From Myxococcota bacterium (GTDB lineage Bacteria > Myxococcota > XYA12-FULL-58-9): DNA of 64,000 bases. The notes beneath the pieces are model-generated. The model searched no databases. It was not told the origin of the DNA and saw only the letters and a program-made list of their open reading frames with translations. Of this stretch, positions 44,077-47,863 are shown in pieces. Each line of letters starts with the position of its first letter. The first letter of the stretch is position 1. The DNA lies in assembly GCA_036736205.1 (NCBI GenBank), contig DAINMX010000002.1:6001-70000 (forward strand), read 5' to 3'. The translations under genes and the position numbers were made by a program.

Positions 44077-45264
44077 ATGGTCGAAAAAAAGCACATCATC
44101 CTCGGAGTTTCCGGAAGCATCGCCGCTTACAAGGCCGTTTACCTCACTCGACTGTTCGTCGAAGCGAGGGCGCACGTGTGGCCCATGCTCACCGCGGCGG
44201 GGGCACGCTTTGTCGGCCCCCTCACCTTCTCGGCTCTCACCGGCAATCGAGCGGTGACCGATATGTGGTCGGCATCTGAGGCAGGTGAAATCAATCATGT
44301 CGAGCTCGCACACCGGGCCGACCTCTTGGTGCTCGCTCCAGCCACCGCGGACCTGCTCGCGCGCTTGGCTCTCGGCCGTGCCGACGATCCACTCGCCGCC
44401 GTCGCGCTTTCGACTCAAGCGCCGTGGTTGGTCGCGCCGGCTATGGAAAGCGGCATGTGGAACAATCCGGCTACACAGAAGAATGTCGAGACACTGCGCG
44501 AGCGTGGTGCCCAGTTCGTCATGCCCACGGCGGGACGCCTCGCCTCGGGCGCAACCGGTGTCGGGCGGATGGCCGAACCCGAGGACATTTTCGAGGCTGC
44601 ACTGGGTCGACTCACGTCCCAAGATCTGCACGGCAAAAAGGTCGTCGTCACCGCCGGCCCCACCCGCGAGTACTTTGACCCTGTGCGTTTCATCAGCAAC
44701 CCTTCATCGGGGAAAATGGGGTTCGCTGTGGCGCGGGTGGCACGACGGCGCGGTGCAGAGGTTGTGTTGATCACGGGACCGAGTAACCTCGTTCCTCCCC
44801 CAGATGTTCACGTCGATCGCATTGAGACAACTGCCGAGCTTCTCACCGCTTGCCAAAACGCCCTCCAAGATGCGGATATCTTAGTCATGGCTGCAGCGCC
44901 GGGAGATTTCTCCCCAGCTTCCAGGCAAACGACAAAGAGTAAAAAACCGACAGCAGCTTTTCAGGCCGCACTCGAGCCCACTGTTGACGTTCTCAAGACC
45001 CTCGCCCCCCGCAAGGCTGGCTGCTTCGTTGTGGGTTTCGCCGCAGAGACCCATGACGTCAATGAAAGGGCCAAAGCCAAACTGGAGGCCAAAGACCTCG
45101 ACCTTGTTGTTGCGAATGACATCACGCTACCCGACGCCGGGTTCGGCACCGACACCAATGTCGTCACCATCATCTCACGCGATGGCTCGGCCGCCCGTTT
45201 GCCTGCGCTTTCGAAGGTGGCAGTGGCTGAGGAAATCCTCGATCGCGTCGTCACCGCGTTGTGA
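44077..45264 (+). CDS. coaBC: Bifunctional phosphopantothenoylcysteine decarboxylase / phosphopantothenate-cysteine ligase (Dfp)
   Basis: 395 aa. N-terminal flavoprotein motif ILGVSGSIAAYKA and C-terminal CoaB motifs (GPTREYFDPVRFISNPSSGKMG). Both halves are present. Confidence 0.9.
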   Translation: MVEKKHIILGVSGSIAAYKAVYLTRLFVEARAHVWPMLTAAGARFVGPLTFSALTGNRAVTDMWSASEAGEINHVELAHRADLLVLAPATADLLARLALGRADDPLAAVALSTQAPWLVAPAMESGMWNNPATQKNVETLRERGAQFVMPTAGRLASGATGVGRMAEPEDIFEAALGRLTSQDLHGKKVVVTAGPTREYFDPVRFISNPSSGKMGFAVARVARRRGAEVVLITGPSNLVPPPDVHVDRIETTAELLTACQNALQDADILVMAAAPGDFSPASRQTTKSKKPTAAFQAALEPTVDVLKTLAPRKAGCFVVGFAAETHDVNERAKAKLEAKDLDLVVANDITLPDAGFGTDTNVVTIISRDGSAARLPALSKVAVAEEILDRVVTAL

Positions 45265-45361
45265 CGTTGCCACATAGATCGCAAAGAACGGCACACGGGT
45301 GACGGTGGTCCCATCGAGGTTGTCGTGTCCCTCGGGTTGGCATGGCAGGATTCAAAACCGG

Positions 45362-45419
45362 CCTCAGGTGTGCGTTTCAGGATAACTCGGTAGCGACGTC
45401 GTTGGCGAACCTGAGGTTT
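45362..45419 (+). terminator. Long imperfect hairpin (CCTCAGGT ...39 nt... ACCTGAGG) followed by TTT, about 100 nt downstream of coaBC; candidate terminator or small structured RNA
   Basis: 8-bp perfect inverted repeat enclosing a 39-nt segment, then tttg. It sits in an unusually AT-rich 230-nt intergenic region. Structure not verified. Confidence 0.25.
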
Positions 45420-45493
45420 GCAAATACTTGGGCCGGATTCTATGATTCGCATATTGTTAGTGTGTCTTTGATGATTTATGGTCGGCACCAGTA

Positions 45494-47863
45494 TTGATGA
45501 GAATAGTTATGGCTGTTTCACGACTTCACGAAAGTGCAACTGGTAAGACGCTTGCAGTTGATGCGAACGACGCCACAAGAAAAGCCGGCGTCGATCTCGA
45601 GCTATGGGTCCCAGGCCCAAAATCAAGACTTTTTGACCTCTTCAGAGACATGCCCGAAGAGGTTGATTTCTATTATGTGGAGAAGATTTACGAGAGATTC
45701 ATTGCGGATCTCGATGCCGGCAGAAGATTGCGGATTGACGGTGCCAGCTTCACGAGCATGTTGATGGCCGCGGCGGTACGCTGCCCAGATCGCCGGCTGC
45801 CCAAGCAGCCCCCGGTCGACATGGCTGGAAAAGCTCTAAAGGCTCTCGTCGATGGCCTCAAAATGGCTATCGAAAAGAAGGGTCTCAACTCCCAAGATTT
45901 CACCTGGCACGACATCGGTGAAAGAGTGGAGAGCGCCGTGTGGTGGGACCAAGGTCCCATGGGCGAACCTGTGATTACGGTCTATCGAATGCAGCACTCA
46001 GTCGAGGTGGCGGCGAAAGATCAAACATTATCCGCAGAGTCCGGTTTCCACATTCGACAAAGCGCGTCAACGATTGCATCGGGCGGCGTTGCACAATGCG
46101 ACCATTTCGTTGTTGGTAGAAAAGCGAATCCGCCAGAGGCGATGACCGGACTACACCAACCCAATGGCAAGGCAGAGACGTCGTTCGAGAATCTGGACAT
46201 TCCTGATCCGCGATACCGAGATGGTCTGCGATCGCTGGCGGCAGGAACGCGTCCGATTGGTCTCCGGGAGCTCGGCCGGGCACTCGGCTCGCTCATTGAT
46301 GACGACAACGTTTTCGACAATCTCATTCCCTTCTTCAAGGCCTTCTGGAATGATCTCGACAGCAAAGTACGTGCTCTGGAGCTTCTCTTTGAAAGCTGCC
46401 AGGCGCGAGCGCGTGGGTTGCCGCCTCCATCTCCCACTCTGGTGAGCCTGGGAGACGAAGCAAAGACAAGACAAGTGCTGGCGAAGCTGATTCAGCAACC
46501 GCGTCCTATTTCGGCGATCGCGATGCGACAGGCAATTCTCGACGGTACCAACCAAGGAGATCCAAGGGCAGCCAATGCCGTCTATGATTTGTATCGCTCA
46601 TTTTTCAGAGAGCACGGCAAGGATCTCGACACAAATGCCTGCGCTGCGTTTTTCGTCTATGAGCGGTTGGTGAGAGACGCGCGATGTAAGGGTCTCCTCG
46701 GAATTCAAGGCAATCTTGCCCGCGAAATCGCAGCGGCCGATTACCAGAGCACCTATGGCGCGCAACTCATAGAGCGCCTCAAAGGACACGATGACCCCGG
46801 CAGGGCGATAGCCCACGCCCTCGCAGCATCCCTGGAGGCACCAGACGCCGAACTCTCCAAGGTTGCAGCAGACTTCACGGCCTACGCCGGGGCGAATCCG
46901 AACGTGCTGGGATCTGCTGGTTTGTCCCTGACGGCTCTGTTCGCTCGAGCGGTAAACGCTCAGGGAGAAGATGCTCCACTCAAACCCGACGTGTTGTCGT
47001 TGCCTTTGGATCGAGACAAGCTGCGCAAGGCGCTGCTTGGCGAAACAGTGTACGACCCTTGCCTGCTCGACGAGCTACCGGCGCCGCGACCCAAAAGTAT
47101 GAGTCGTGTCTACGGGTTAAAACGCGTCGCTGCAGATCTCATGGTCAATGGAGTCGCGGCTGTTGATGTGCAACAACGACTTCTGTTTGGCAATTGTCCC
47201 TTCTGTGCAAGCTGCGCGTCACTTGCAAATTGCCGGCCAGAATTACTCGCCAAAATGATCACCGACAACGAAGACGGAACCTACACCGTACGGTTTCGCG
47301 TGCCAGCTCCTGATGCCCCTGGCTTCTGCGAGCTACCCGTTCTCGTTGATGGCCGACTCTTCGTAACGGCGAGCGGTGATACCGTCTTCGGCCATTTATC
47401 TCCAGCGTGGGGGGAGACAACGAAGTCGTCAATGTGGTTCGCCATTGTCGAGAAGGCCTTCGCAGCAATGTCTGGAGGATACGCAGCCATCGAGGGAGGC
47501 ACATCTTGGTTCGTATTGTCGTTGTTGACGGGGACTCCCTGCGACGTCGTGAAATTTGACGGCCGTGACGATGTCATTGAGCGGCTCCGACGGGTTGTTG
47601 ACGCCCGTCAGCCGTGCGTCGTCAGCCAGAGTGATCCACAACATCCGATGCCAGCCGGCATTGAAGTGGAACACGCCTACTCGCTCCTCGGATACACGGA
47701 ACAAGACGGCAAGCTGTATTTTATCCTCCGCAACCCCTGGGGCTTTGGGGAGCCGGCGGGTGATGGCATCAACGATGGGGTGTTTTGGATGTCAGCCAAT
47801 GATCTGGCAACCGTATTCGAGGAAGCCTATTTCGCTCAGGTGCCTACCAGCGATCATCAATAG
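45494..47863 (+). CDS. Large protein (789 aa) with C-terminal calpain-type cysteine protease domain (peptidase C2-like: Cys in GNCPF, His in HAYSLLG, Asn in LRNPWG); about 480-aa N-terminal region of unknown function
   Basis: Calpain catalytic-core order: QRLLFGNCPFCASCASLA ... SSMWFAIVEKAFAAMSGGYAAIEGGTSWFVLSLLTG ... EHAYSLLGYTEQDGKLYFILRNPWG. The gene, especially its 5' half, is visibly lower in GC than its neighbours and is preceded by an AT-rich intergenic region. Confidence 0.75.
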   Translation: MMRIVMAVSRLHESATGKTLAVDANDATRKAGVDLELWVPGPKSRLFDLFRDMPEEVDFYYVEKIYERFIADLDAGRRLRIDGASFTSMLMAAAVRCPDRRLPKQPPVDMAGKALKALVDGLKMAIEKKGLNSQDFTWHDIGERVESAVWWDQGPMGEPVITVYRMQHSVEVAAKDQTLSAESGFHIRQSASTIASGGVAQCDHFVVGRKANPPEAMTGLHQPNGKAETSFENLDIPDPRYRDGLRSLAAGTRPIGLRELGRALGSLIDDDNVFDNLIPFFKAFWNDLDSKVRALELLFESCQARARGLPPPSPTLVSLGDEAKTRQVLAKLIQQPRPISAIAMRQAILDGTNQGDPRAANAVYDLYRSFFREHGKDLDTNACAAFFVYERLVRDARCKGLLGIQGNLAREIAAADYQSTYGAQLIERLKGHDDPGRAIAHALAASLEAPDAELSKVAADFTAYAGANPNVLGSAGLSLTALFARAVNAQGEDAPLKPDVLSLPLDRDKLRKALLGETVYDPCLLDELPAPRPKSMSRVYGLKRVAADLMVNGVAAVDVQQRLLFGNCPFCASCASLANCRPELLAKMITDNEDGTYTVRFRVPAPDAPGFCELPVLVDGRLFVTASGDTVFGHLSPAWGETTKSSMWFAIVEKAFAAMSGGYAAIEGGTSWFVLSLLTGTPCDVVKFDGRDDVIERLRRVVDARQPCVVSQSDPQHPMPAGIEVEHAYSLLGYTEQDGKLYFILRNPWGFGEPAGDGINDGVFWMSANDLATVFEEAYFAQVPTSDHQ

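What the first reader, a model, noticed from the sequence alone, without database searches (positions are those of the whole stretch)
45264..47863. Low-GC calpain-like cysteine protease gene with a 480-aa unknown N-terminal region, preceded by an AT-rich structured intergenic region
The C-terminal 300 aa contain the full calpain catalytic core, with the Cys, His and Asn motifs in the right order and the characteristic intervening WFAIVEKAFA...GG segment. The N-terminal 480 aa match nothing I recognise. The gene, most clearly its 5' third, and the 230-nt upstream spacer are much more AT-rich than all flanking genes. This suggests horizontal acquisition. The spacer also holds an 8-bp-stem hairpin that encloses 39 nt and is followed by TTT.
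Basis: partly seen in the sequence, partly recalled or inferred. Interest (0 to 1): 0.55.

Follow-up and report, generated by a model that had tools for sequence, protein, structure and literature searches.

The report
Bacterial calpain-type protease with helical module
The gene encodes a bacterial relative of the calpain cysteine proteases whose "unknown" front half contains an undescribed helical module that recurs next to such proteases, which makes it a modest addition to a known but rare family.

Summary
The ORF is real: 45509-47863, 784 aa, or 789 aa from the TTG at 45494. It is identical to hypothetical protein OGQ90153.1 of Deltaproteobacteria bacterium RIFOXYA12_FULL_58_15.

**Protease domain.** The C-terminal ~250 aa are a genuine calpain-type (Pfam PF00648, MEROPS C2) protease core. 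Gln556, Cys563, His722 and Asn742 are intact. The predicted fold matches solved calpain cores (Foldseek E about 1e-15).

**Calcium sites.** The two calpain calcium sites are incomplete, as in most bacterial calpains.

**N-terminal half.** It is not wholly unknown.
- aa 321-413 are one clear copy of a ~99-aa four-helix unit with no Pfam model.
- That unit occurs 2-9 times in tandem in rare metagenomic proteins.
- It is fused to another calpain and to a transglutaminase-like domain.
- In diverged form it precedes the protease core in the closest short calpain homologues.
- aa 1-230 have no detectable relatives.

**Composition.** AT-richness is real but modest. GC3 is 0.587, the lowest of 34 genes (z = -1.8), and codon usage is the most deviant among long genes. 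Horizontal acquisition is plausible but unproven: no mobility genes, no tRNA, no flanking repeats and no informative sister locus were found.

**Hairpin.** It exists, but it is not more stable than shuffled sequence and matches no RNA family.

**Verdict.** An ordinary new member of the known bacterial calpains, with a mildly interesting accessory module.

The parts
45265..45508 (+). Intergenic spacer between coaBC (44077-45264) and the protease gene. It is 229 nt if the gene starts at TTG 45494.
   Evidence: GC is 0.508, third lowest of 18 spacers. The fold z-score is -1.95. There is no Rfam match better than E = 1.8.
45362..45416 (+). Hairpin: 8-bp perfect arms (45362-45369 and 45409-45416) around 39 nt, followed by TTTGCAA. 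It may be a weak coaBC terminator or have no function.
   Evidence: The arms are listed. The local fold is -25.7 kcal/mol with z = -1.42. The terminator scan does not call it.
45418..45446 (+). Sigma-70-like promoter candidate TTGCAA-17-TATGAT, just downstream of the hairpin.
   Evidence: 9 of 12 matches. The region gave 2 hits against 1.4 expected, so this is weak evidence.
45509..47863 (+). Protease CDS, 784 aa, identical to OGQ90153.1. Alternative starts are TTG 45494, ATG 45497 and ATG 45650 (737 aa, as called in other assemblies).
   Evidence: The coding signature GC1 > GC3 > GC2 holds in every segment. No start has a strong Shine-Dalgarno sequence.
45509..46198 (+). aa 1-230: region with no detectable relatives. 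No signal peptide or transmembrane segment. Low-confidence model, with aa ~160-230 predicted as coil.
   Evidence: The exhaustive search of 1.84 billion cluster representatives found no match to this part. pLDDT is 20-50. The maximum hydropathy over 19 residues is 1.28.
46205..46417 (+). aa 233-303: helical segment, a possible degenerate copy of the helical module.
   Evidence: hhalign against the repeat profile gives an in-register match at E = 0.0042 but probability 8%. Predicted helices are 234-245, 252-263 and 268-301, at pLDDT 60-73.
46469..46747 (+). aa 321-413: one clear copy of the ~99-aa four-helix repeat unit. It reads GTNQGDPRAANAVY where the consensus is GTKDLDxQAAGxEF.
   Evidence: The match to an HMM of 166 units has E = 2.4e-18. 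The AlphaFold model has pLDDT 90 and pTM 0.81. No Pfam model matches.
46754..46960 (+). aa 416-484: four predicted helices at low confidence. This may be a further degenerate module or a linker domain.
   Evidence: Helices are 416-424, 430-441, 446-462 and 464-484, at pLDDT 40-60. No sequence match was found.
47096..47848 (+). aa ~530-780: calpain-type (CysPc, Pfam PF00648, MEROPS C2) protease core.
   Evidence: Pfam E = 2.3e-22. Sequence matches to solved calpains 5, 9, 8 and 2 have E = 1e-9 to 1e-6. pLDDT is 85-97. Foldseek against calpain cores gives E about 1e-15 and target-normalised TM 0.6-0.7.
47174..47176 (+). Gln556, the oxyanion-hole glutamine (Gln99 of calpain-2).
   Evidence: It is invariant in alignment A1 and aligned to human m-calpain.
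47195..47197 (+). Cys563, the catalytic nucleophile (Cys105 of calpain-2).
47672..47674 (+). His722, the catalytic base (His262 of calpain-2).
47732..47734 (+). Asn742, within the RNPWG motif (Asn286 of calpain-2).

Best explanation
The gene encodes a multidomain bacterial calpain-type (MEROPS C2) cysteine endopeptidase.

**Shown**
- The C-terminal ~250 aa have the calpain protease-core sequence, an intact Gln/Cys/His/Asn catalytic set and the calpain fold.
- The N-terminal half contains one clear copy (aa 321-413) of an undescribed ~99-aa four-helix unit.
- That unit is a generic alpha-solenoid-type building block.
- It also occurs next to calpain cores in other bacteria, and next to a transglutaminase-like domain.

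**Inferred**
- The protein is an active thiol protease that cleaves by the papain/calpain mechanism (about 0.85).
- It is not switched on by calcium in the classical calpain way, because site 1 lacks its Glu and site 2 is largely deleted (about 0.6).
- The helical module, with the helical segments on either side of it, serves as a protein-binding part. It either recruits substrates or partners or holds the protease in check (about 0.5).
- The protein stays in the cytoplasm or leaves by a non-Sec route, since it has no signal peptide, transmembrane segment or known trafficking domain.
- It is transcribed from its own promoter in the AT-rich end of the spacer.
- The hairpin upstream of that promoter is at most a weak coaBC terminator.
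- The gene was probably acquired horizontally some time ago (about 0.5), given its modest but consistent compositional deviation and very patchy distribution.
For: **Family and residues**
- Pfam PF00648 scores 79.9 bits against a cutoff of 23.8.
- Q556, C563, H722 and N742 are invariant in an alignment with 15 homologues. They are aligned to human m-calpain.

**Fold**
- The model has pLDDT 85-97 over aa 530-780.
- All of the top 40 Foldseek hits in the PDB are calpain cores, E down to 1.7e-15, target-normalised TM up to 0.70.

**Calcium sites**, mapped on 1kfu with site residues taken from PMC4631099
- Site 1: V546, G548 and D553 are kept, but Glu175 corresponds to Ser641.
- Site 2: only Glu292 is kept (Glu748), and the loop is deleted.

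**Helical module**
- The exhaustive search of the N-terminal 515 aa gave 38 hits. For 37 of them the best-matching stretch begins at query aa ~300-335.
- An HMM built from 166 units hits aa 321-413 at E = 2.4e-18.
- The model of the unit has pLDDT 90.
- No Pfam model matches.

**Link between module and thiol enzymes**
- P0046 has the order RTX repeats, calpain core, then 9 units.
- L105 has 6 units followed by a PF20085 transglutaminase-like domain, E = 6e-16.
- The N-termini of the closest short calpains (P0003, P0004, P0006, P0007, P0010) match the unit profile by hhalign at probability 85%, E = 6.4e-6.

**Location**
- No signal peptide or transmembrane segment.

**Composition**

**Maintenance**
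- The gene is intact at the same locus in a second sample, with 99.755% DNA identity and no disruptive change.

**Background**
- Bacterial calpains are known to be rare and patchy, usually with a C-terminal peptidase domain and without calcium sites (PMC4631099).
Against: - No biochemical data exist for this protein or any close relative.
- The active-site context is unusual: GNCPF where the homologues have GDC[YWF].
- The window's copy of the module lacks two of the three conserved acidic residues of the family motif. It may have diverged in function.
- The flanking 'degenerate copies' rest on hhalign probability 8% and on low-confidence helices.
- In 23 metagenome loci that encode repeat proteins, no separate calpain gene lies within 6 kb. 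The module is therefore not specific to calpains.
- The compositional deviation is only z = -1.8 on the gene-to-gene spread and could reflect low expression.
- No mobility signature is present.
- The promoter call is a weak consensus match.
Confidence: 0.7

Rival explanations
1. It is a delivered toxin or effector of the polymorphic-toxin kind. In that reading the C-terminal calpain domain is the payload, and the variable N-terminal region directs export or targeting to another cell.
For: - The peptidase is C-terminal and the N-terminal regions differ among homologues. These include WXG100-calpain (P0034, P0036), RTX-calpain (P0046) and Ig-like-calpain (P0002, P0005).
- WXG100-calpain fusions have been read as type VII secretion toxins (PMC4631099, reviewer comment).
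- The distribution is patchy and the composition atypical.
Against: - No WXG100, RTX, Rhs, PAAR, signal peptide or other trafficking domain was found in this protein.
- No small immunity-type ORF follows the gene. A convergent histidine kinase gene ends 116 nt downstream.
- No secretion-system genes were seen among the annotated neighbours. These are housekeeping and signalling genes.
Confidence: 0.15
2. The gene is native. Its low GC3 and odd codon usage reflect weak expression and relaxed codon selection, not horizontal transfer.
For: - The deviation is modest: GC3 0.587 against a mean of 0.665 with sd 0.043, and total GC 0.560 against 0.589.
- There are no tRNA genes, integrase genes or flanking repeats.
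- The neighbours are housekeeping genes.
- The same locus is present in a second sample.
Against: - None of 214 windows of 261 codons from other genes reaches the GC3 of the first and last thirds of this gene.
- The gene has the largest equal-size codon deviation of the long genes, with AGA enriched five-fold.
- No orthologue exists outside one species-level population among about 15 billion proteins.
- Bacterial calpains as a family show a distribution typical of transfer (PMC4631099).
Confidence: 0.4
3. The spacer hairpin is a functional cis-regulatory RNA, such as a riboswitch, attenuator or protein-binding site, that controls the protease gene.
For: - A perfect 8-bp stem can be extended to a ~70-nt imperfect hairpin of -25.7 kcal/mol.
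- The whole spacer folds slightly better than shuffles, z = -1.95.
Against: - 18 of 200 shuffles fold as well as the hairpin region.
- By rough count, an 8-bp inverted repeat within 60 nt of a 230-nt region is expected by chance about once in five regions.
- No Rfam family matches better than E = 1.8.
- The only promoter-like site lies downstream of the hairpin, so the hairpin would not be in the protease mRNA.
- Covariation cannot be tested. The only other copy of the spacer (L088) has no differences.
Confidence: 0.07
4. It is a catalytically dead calpain homologue that acts only as a binding protein.
For: - The nucleophile context is unusual: GNCPF instead of GDCW/Y, with three further cysteines nearby at 566, 569 and 575.
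- Non-peptidase calpain homologues are known (PMC4631099).
Against: - All four catalytic residues are conserved.
- The RNPWG, EKAF/YA and HAYS motifs are conserved.
- Nearly all bacterial homologues are predicted to be active (PMC4631099).
Confidence: 0.08

Closest known systems
Bacterial calpain homologues (MEROPS family C2; Rawlings 2015, PMC4631099), including Tpr of Porphyromonas gingivalis, the only one characterised biochemically
   Same: - The CysPc core has the Gln/Cys/His/Asn set.
- The peptidase domain is at the C-terminus.
- The calcium sites of the core are incomplete.
- There are no calpain-III or penta-EF-hand domains.
- The distribution is rare and patchy.
- The gene is chromosomal.
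   Different: - Identity to the nearest homologues found is only 35-37%.
- The N-terminal ~520 aa have an architecture not listed in that survey: a region with no relatives, followed by an unnamed helical module.
- There is no WXG100, RTX, discoidin, PPC or CARDB domain.
Classical eukaryotic calpains (calpain-1, -2, -3, -5, -8 and -9 protease cores; PDB 6bdt, 2p0r, 1kfu, 6p3q)
   Same: - The fold and catalytic residues match.
- The WxxxxEKAYAKxxGxYxAxxGG and RNPWG motifs are present.
   Different: - Identity is about 20-24%.
- The ~25-residue loop that carries calcium site 2 is missing, and the site-1 Glu is a Ser.
- There is no C2-like domain, no penta-EF-hand domain and no small subunit.
Short stand-alone calpains of Myxococcaceae and deltaproteobacterial metagenome-assembled genomes (P0003, P0004, P0006, P0007, P0010; the last is MGA9525906.1, 'C2 family cysteine protease')
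   Same: - They are the closest calpain cores, at 32-37% identity.
- They lack a signal peptide.
- A diverged single copy of the same helical module lies directly N-terminal to the core (hhalign probability 85%).
   Different: - They are 337-347 aa long, against 784 aa here.
- They lack the aa 1-230 region and the extra helical segments.
P0046, a 1335-aa metagenomic protein with RTX repeats, a calpain core and 9 helical units
   Same: It has both a calpain core and the same helical repeat family in one polypeptide.
   Different: - The order is reversed: the protease is N-terminal and the repeats are C-terminal.
- It has nine units instead of one clear copy.
- It has RTX repeats.
- Its calpain core is only 31% identical to the window's, so it is not the closest relative. 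The two fusions are probably independent.
Eukaryotic calpains with N-terminal helical repeats, such as the Naegleria TPR-calpains (PMC4631099)
   Same: The general layout is the same: protein-binding helical repeats in front of a calpain core.
   Different: The repeat family is unrelated. No TPR Pfam family reaches significance (best single hit TPR_30, E = 0.046, in 1 of 23 units).

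Membership tests
Calpain family, MEROPS C2 / Pfam PF00648 (CysPc core) | Profile match above the curated threshold | tested here: met
   The score is 79.9 bits against a cutoff of 23.8, E = 2.3e-22, covering aa 538-755 of the 789-aa ORF.
Calpain family, MEROPS C2 / Pfam PF00648 (CysPc core) | Catalytic Cys, His and Asn, plus the oxyanion Gln, in that order | tested here: met
   Q556, C563, H722 and N742 are invariant in A1. They align to Q99, C105, H262 and N286 of m-calpain.
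Calpain family, MEROPS C2 / Pfam PF00648 (CysPc core) | Two-subdomain papain-like calpain fold | tested here: met
   The model has pLDDT 85-97. The best 40 PDB matches are all calpains, with E down to 1.7e-15 and target-normalised TM 0.6-0.7.
Calpain family, MEROPS C2 / Pfam PF00648 (CysPc core) | Thiol-dependent endopeptidase activity | not testable with these tools
   This needs an enzyme assay with a C563S control.
Classical calcium-regulated calpains | Both calcium sites of the protease core (I89/G91/D96/E175 and E292/D299/Q319/E323 of calpain-2) | tested here: not met
   At site 1, V546, G548 and D553 are kept but the Glu is Ser641. At site 2 only Glu748 is kept and the loop is deleted (site residues from PMC4631099).
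Classical calcium-regulated calpains | Calpain-III (C2-like) and penta-EF-hand domains | tested here: not met
   No such Pfam hits were found, and the protein ends about 5 aa after the core.
Polymorphic toxin / secreted effector with a calpain payload | Recognisable N-terminal trafficking domain or signal (WXG100, RTX, Rhs, PAAR, Sec signal) | tested here: not met
   Pfam, NCBIfam and PADLOC give nothing for the N-terminal region. There is no hydrophobic N-terminus.
Polymorphic toxin / secreted effector with a calpain payload | Immunity gene immediately downstream | tested here: not met
   A 115-nt gap is followed by a convergent histidine kinase gene, with no ORF between.
Polymorphic toxin / secreted effector with a calpain payload | Toxin domain at the extreme C-terminus with variable upstream regions among homologues | tested here: met
   
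Unnamed ~99-aa helical repeat family (38 cluster representatives, 166 units) | Significant match to the unit profile | tested here: met
   aa 321-413 match at E = 2.4e-18, covering profile positions 3-95 of 99.
Unnamed ~99-aa helical repeat family (38 cluster representatives, 166 units) | Tandem array of 2-9 units | tested here: inconclusive
   There is one clear unit only. A possible degenerate copy at aa 233-303 has hhalign E = 0.0042 and probability 8%. Helices at 416-484 have no sequence match.
Unnamed ~99-aa helical repeat family (38 cluster representatives, 166 units) | Conserved G-T-x-D-x-D-x-x-A-A-x-x-E motif between helices 2 and 3 | tested here: not met
   The window reads GTNQGDPRAANAVY. 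The first Asp and the Glu are replaced.
Horizontally acquired gene / genomic islet | Composition and codon usage outside the host range | tested here: inconclusive
   The gene has the lowest GC3 of 34 genes (z = -1.8) and the highest codon deviation of 14 long genes, but it is not an extreme outlier. Only 64 kb of the genome was available.
Horizontally acquired gene / genomic islet | Mobility signatures (tRNA target, integrase or transposase, flanking direct repeats) | tested here: not met
   
Horizontally acquired gene / genomic islet | Absent from the syntenic site in sister genomes | not testable with these tools
   The nearest genomes by ValS (68-71% identity) have no coaBC or protease gene beside valS. 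The only syntenic copies belong to the same population.
Intrinsic terminator / cis-regulatory RNA (spacer hairpin) | Stability above chance, a family match, or a canonical GC-rich short-loop stem with a U-tract | tested here: not met
   z = -1.42. No Rfam hit was found. The terminator scan does not call it.

The most novel reading that the evidence does not exclude
The ~99-aa four-helix unit is a previously unrecognised partner domain of bacterial thiol protein-modifying enzymes (calpain and transglutaminase-like). It would act either as an intramolecular regulator or pro-domain, or as a substrate adaptor. The stand-alone tandem arrays of the unit, with 2-11 copies, would then be scaffolds, decoys or inhibitors for such enzymes. 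That would be a loose bacterial counterpart of the calpain-calpastatin relationship.
Probability: 0.15. Interest if true: 0.55.

Novelty: new member of a known kind. Interest (0 to 1): 0.3.

Why it matters
Bacterial calpains are rare, patchily distributed and almost unstudied. Only Tpr of Porphyromonas gingivalis has been characterised. They also bear on where eukaryotic calpains came from.

This protein adds a divergent member with a complete catalytic set and no working copy of the classical calcium switch.

The more useful result is the helical module. An undescribed module accompanies one clade of bacterial calpain cores and also occurs as long tandem arrays. That gives a concrete handle for asking how these proteases are regulated or targeted.

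None of this changes current understanding. The practical value is better annotation of OGQ90153.1 and its relatives, and a candidate for a new domain family.

Tried and rejected
- **Word-index search with the full protein.** It found only the protein itself. With the repeat alignment it found only two short proteins.
- **NCBIfam and PADLOC.** Neither gave any hit for the protein.
- **Synteny test for insertion.** ValS-anchored loci from 80 species genomes showed no coaBC or protease gene next to valS in the closest relatives. The test was therefore impossible.
- **EF-hand idea for the module.**
  - It was prompted by the PGxISGxE loop and by the two short bridge residues in the model.
  - hhalign against calmodulin gave probability 0.6%.
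  - The idea was rejected.
- **AlphaFold database library.** It was not available.
- **Pfam hits inside the repeat proteins.** Hits such as Nsp1_C, HMG_box, TerB and TMP_3 have no individually significant stretch and are inconsistent between units. They were treated as repeat-bias artefacts.
- **Adjacency of repeat-protein genes to calpain genes.** None was found within 6 kb in 23 metagenome loci, nor in the separately fetched loci of three stand-alone repeat proteins (P0052, P0061, P0051).
- **Alignment A4.** The trimmed domains were misaligned, with repeats placed on the protease, so A4 was not used. A3 was used for the full-length model.
- **Rfam and terminator scans of the spacer.** Nothing was found.
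- **Covariation in the hairpin.** It was impossible to test, because the only other copy of the spacer is identical.
- **Repeat alignment A2 as a metagenome query.** A narrower alignment, A5, was used instead.

Full report
**What is there**

The + strand ORF 45494-47863 is open for 789 codons from a TTG. The public protein collection holds it as a 784-aa product starting at ATG 45509.
- The DNA from 41023 to 53863 is 100% identical to contig MGST01000069.1 of GCA_001798605.1, Deltaproteobacteria bacterium RIFOXYA12_FULL_58_15. The protein there is OGQ90153.1, annotated 'hypothetical protein'.
- A second sample carries the same locus at 99.755% identity. It has five substitutions in this gene (three non-synonymous), none disruptive.
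- Other assemblies call a 737-aa product from ATG 45650. No candidate start has a strong Shine-Dalgarno sequence.
- The coding signature GC1 > GC3 > GC2 holds in every segment, including the first 60 codons.
- Neighbours are valS, coaBC, a convergent MASE8-type hybrid histidine kinase with an HD domain, a response regulator-PilZ-methyltransferase protein, and tamB and an Omp85/POTRA (TamA-like) gene. This is ordinary chromosomal context in a diderm bacterium.

**The protease domain**

- Pfam Peptidase_C2 matches at E = 2.3e-22, 79.9 bits against a cutoff of 23.8.
- Solved calpain cores match by sequence at E = 1e-9 to 1e-6.
- In an alignment with 14 bacterial homologues and one spider calpain, Gln556, Cys563, His722 and Asn742 (784-aa numbering) are invariant. 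So are the EKA, HxY and NPWG motifs.
- A full-length AlphaFold model built on alignment A3 has pLDDT 85-97 over aa ~530-780.
- Its best 40 PDB matches are all calpain cores, with E down to 1.7e-15 and target-normalised TM 0.6-0.7.

**Calcium sites**

I mapped the calcium ligands listed by Rawlings (PMC4631099) through the alignment to human m-calpain.
- Site 1 keeps Val546, Gly548 and Asp553. Its Glu is Ser641 here, although that Glu is present in most of the closest bacterial homologues.
- Site 2 keeps only Glu748. The ~25-residue loop that carries the other ligands is absent.
- This fits the published statement that bacterial calpains lack the calcium sites.

**The N-terminal half**

An exhaustive HMMER search of aa 1-515 against 1.84 billion cluster representatives gave 38 hits. 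In nearly every one the best-matching stretch lies at aa ~305-430, and most hits match it several times.
- The hits are proteins built from 2-9 tandem copies of a ~99-aa unit.
- An HMM built from 166 units hits the window protein once, at aa 321-413, with E = 2.4e-18.
- The unit has no consistent Pfam match. The matches to P0044-P0061 are repeat-bias artefacts.
- The unit has no relative among solved structures by sequence.
- The source databases call these proteins hypothetical.

The structure of the unit is a generic helical repeat.
- A model of the window's unit, built with 22 aligned units, has pLDDT 90 and pTM 0.81. It consists of four main helices.
- Foldseek finds nothing in the PDB.
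- An EF-hand relationship that I suspected from loop motifs was tested and rejected.
- The window's copy has lost two of the three conserved acidic residues of the family motif: GTNQGDPRAANAVY against GTKDLDxQAAGxEF.

The rest of the N-terminal half is less clear.
- aa 233-303 may be a degenerate second copy. The hhalign match is in register at E = 0.0042 but probability 8%, with matching helix pattern at pLDDT 60-73.
- aa 416-484 are four low-confidence helices with no sequence match.
- aa 1-230 have no homologue anywhere and model poorly.
- There is no signal peptide or transmembrane segment.

**Link between the module and thiol enzymes**

Three observations tie the module to thiol enzymes.
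- P0046 combines RTX repeats, a calpain core and nine units. Its core is only 31% identical to the window's, less than the short homologues, so the two fusions look independent.
- One metagenomic ORF (L105) has six units followed by a PF20085 transglutaminase-like domain, E = 6e-16.
- The N-terminal ~90 aa of the five closest stand-alone calpains match the unit.
  - Individually they match the unit HMM weakly but in the same register, E = 0.003-0.17.
  - As a profile they match it by hhalign at probability 85%, E = 6.4e-6.
  - 'Module, then calpain core' therefore seems to be the architecture of this calpain clade, and the window protein is an expanded version of it.

The module is not exclusive to calpains. 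In 23 metagenome loci, and in the separately fetched loci of three stand-alone repeat proteins, no separate calpain gene lies nearby.

**Composition and horizontal transfer**

- Window GC is 0.589 and the gene's GC is 0.560.
- GC3 is 0.587, the lowest of 34 genes. The others have mean 0.665, sd 0.043 and minimum 0.596, giving z = -1.8.
- The low GC3 is uniform along the gene (thirds 0.571, 0.602, 0.590). It is not concentrated in the 5' third, apart from the first 60 codons at 0.45.
- None of 214 windows of 261 codons from other genes is as low as thirds 1 and 3.
- With 500-codon subsamples the gene has the largest codon-usage chi-square of 14 long genes: 92.8, against 83.2 for the next and about 57 for the median. 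AGA, ATT, AAT and CAA are over-used.
- The stretch 45417-45716 is the lowest-GC 300 nt of the window (0.45), but two other spacers are more AT-rich than this one.
- There is no tRNA gene, no mobility gene and no flanking repeat.
- The nearest species genomes by ValS (68-71% identity) share no synteny here.
The signal is modest, and weak expression is an equally simple cause.
- The patchy distribution of bacterial calpains (PMC4631099), and the absence of any orthologue outside one population, tilt me slightly towards an old acquisition.

**The spacer**

- The 8-bp inverted repeat with a 39-nt interval is real.
- It can be extended into a ~70-nt imperfect hairpin, but 18 of 200 shuffles fold as well.
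- No Rfam family comes close, and the terminator scan does not call it.
- The only promoter-like site, TTGCAA-17-TATGAT at 45418-45446, lies just downstream of the hairpin.
- The hairpin would therefore sit at the 3' end of the coaBC transcript, not in the protease mRNA.
- I read it as a weak terminator at best.

**Comparison with what is known, and verdict**

Rawlings (2015) already described bacterial calpains as follows:
- they are rare;
- the peptidase domain is usually C-terminal;
- they lack calcium sites;
- their accessory domains vary (WXG100, RTX and others);
- their distribution suggests transfer.

This protein fits that description in every tested respect, so it is a new member of a known kind.

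A polymorphic-toxin reading is weakened by the absence of a trafficking domain and of an immunity gene.

The mildly new element is the helical module. It deserves a domain definition and a simple biochemical test.

Interest is low to moderate.

Noticed in passing
L105:1-4572 (metagenome contig Ga0193954_1001841); also L082:8001-12008: The undescribed ~99-aa helical repeat is fused to different thiol enzymes. In L105, six units are followed by a PF20085 transglutaminase-like domain. In P0046 (L082), RTX repeats and a calpain core are followed by nine units. Stand-alone arrays reach 11 units (L102).
   Followed up: partly
window 40019-40719 (5' part of the GAF-GGDEF gene and the gap before valS), compared with L088: Between the window and a second sample, 21 of the 34 differences across 13.9 kb fall in these 700 nt. 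That is about 26 per kb inside the gene, against 0-2 per kb elsewhere. It looks like a recombination tract or a locally variable segment.
   Followed up: no
window 53958-54260: This is the second most AT-rich stretch of the window. The spacer 53990-54219 has GC 0.465. It lies between the divergent response regulator-PilZ-methyltransferase gene and tamB, and is probably a divergent promoter region.
   Followed up: no
window 50534-53989 (- strand) and 47979-50537 (- strand): Two unusual signalling proteins lie in tandem. One is a 1151-aa protein with receiver, PilZ and SAM-methyltransferase domains. The other is an 852-aa protein with MASE8, HisKA, HATPase, receiver and HD(-GYP-like) domains. 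Their coding regions overlap by 4 nt, which suggests one operon.
   Followed up: no
window 40720-43962 (- strand), ValS aa 733-756: ValS carries a CxxC...CxxC zinc-ribbon-like insertion. It gives a weak match to TIGR02605 (E = 3.5e-4), and the NCBIfam ValS models match in three pieces around it.
   Followed up: no
window 17090-17551 (+ strand): This 153-aa ORF has GC1 0.455, GC2 0.669 and GC3 0.727, unlike all other genes. It may be a wrong-frame call or a non-coding stretch.
   Followed up: no
L086:14184-18596: In the 483-kb contig that carries repeat protein P0061, a 1470-aa protein with an eCIS_core domain (extracellular contractile injection system) lies 3 kb downstream. This is a single case and was not seen at other repeat-protein loci.
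   Followed up: no
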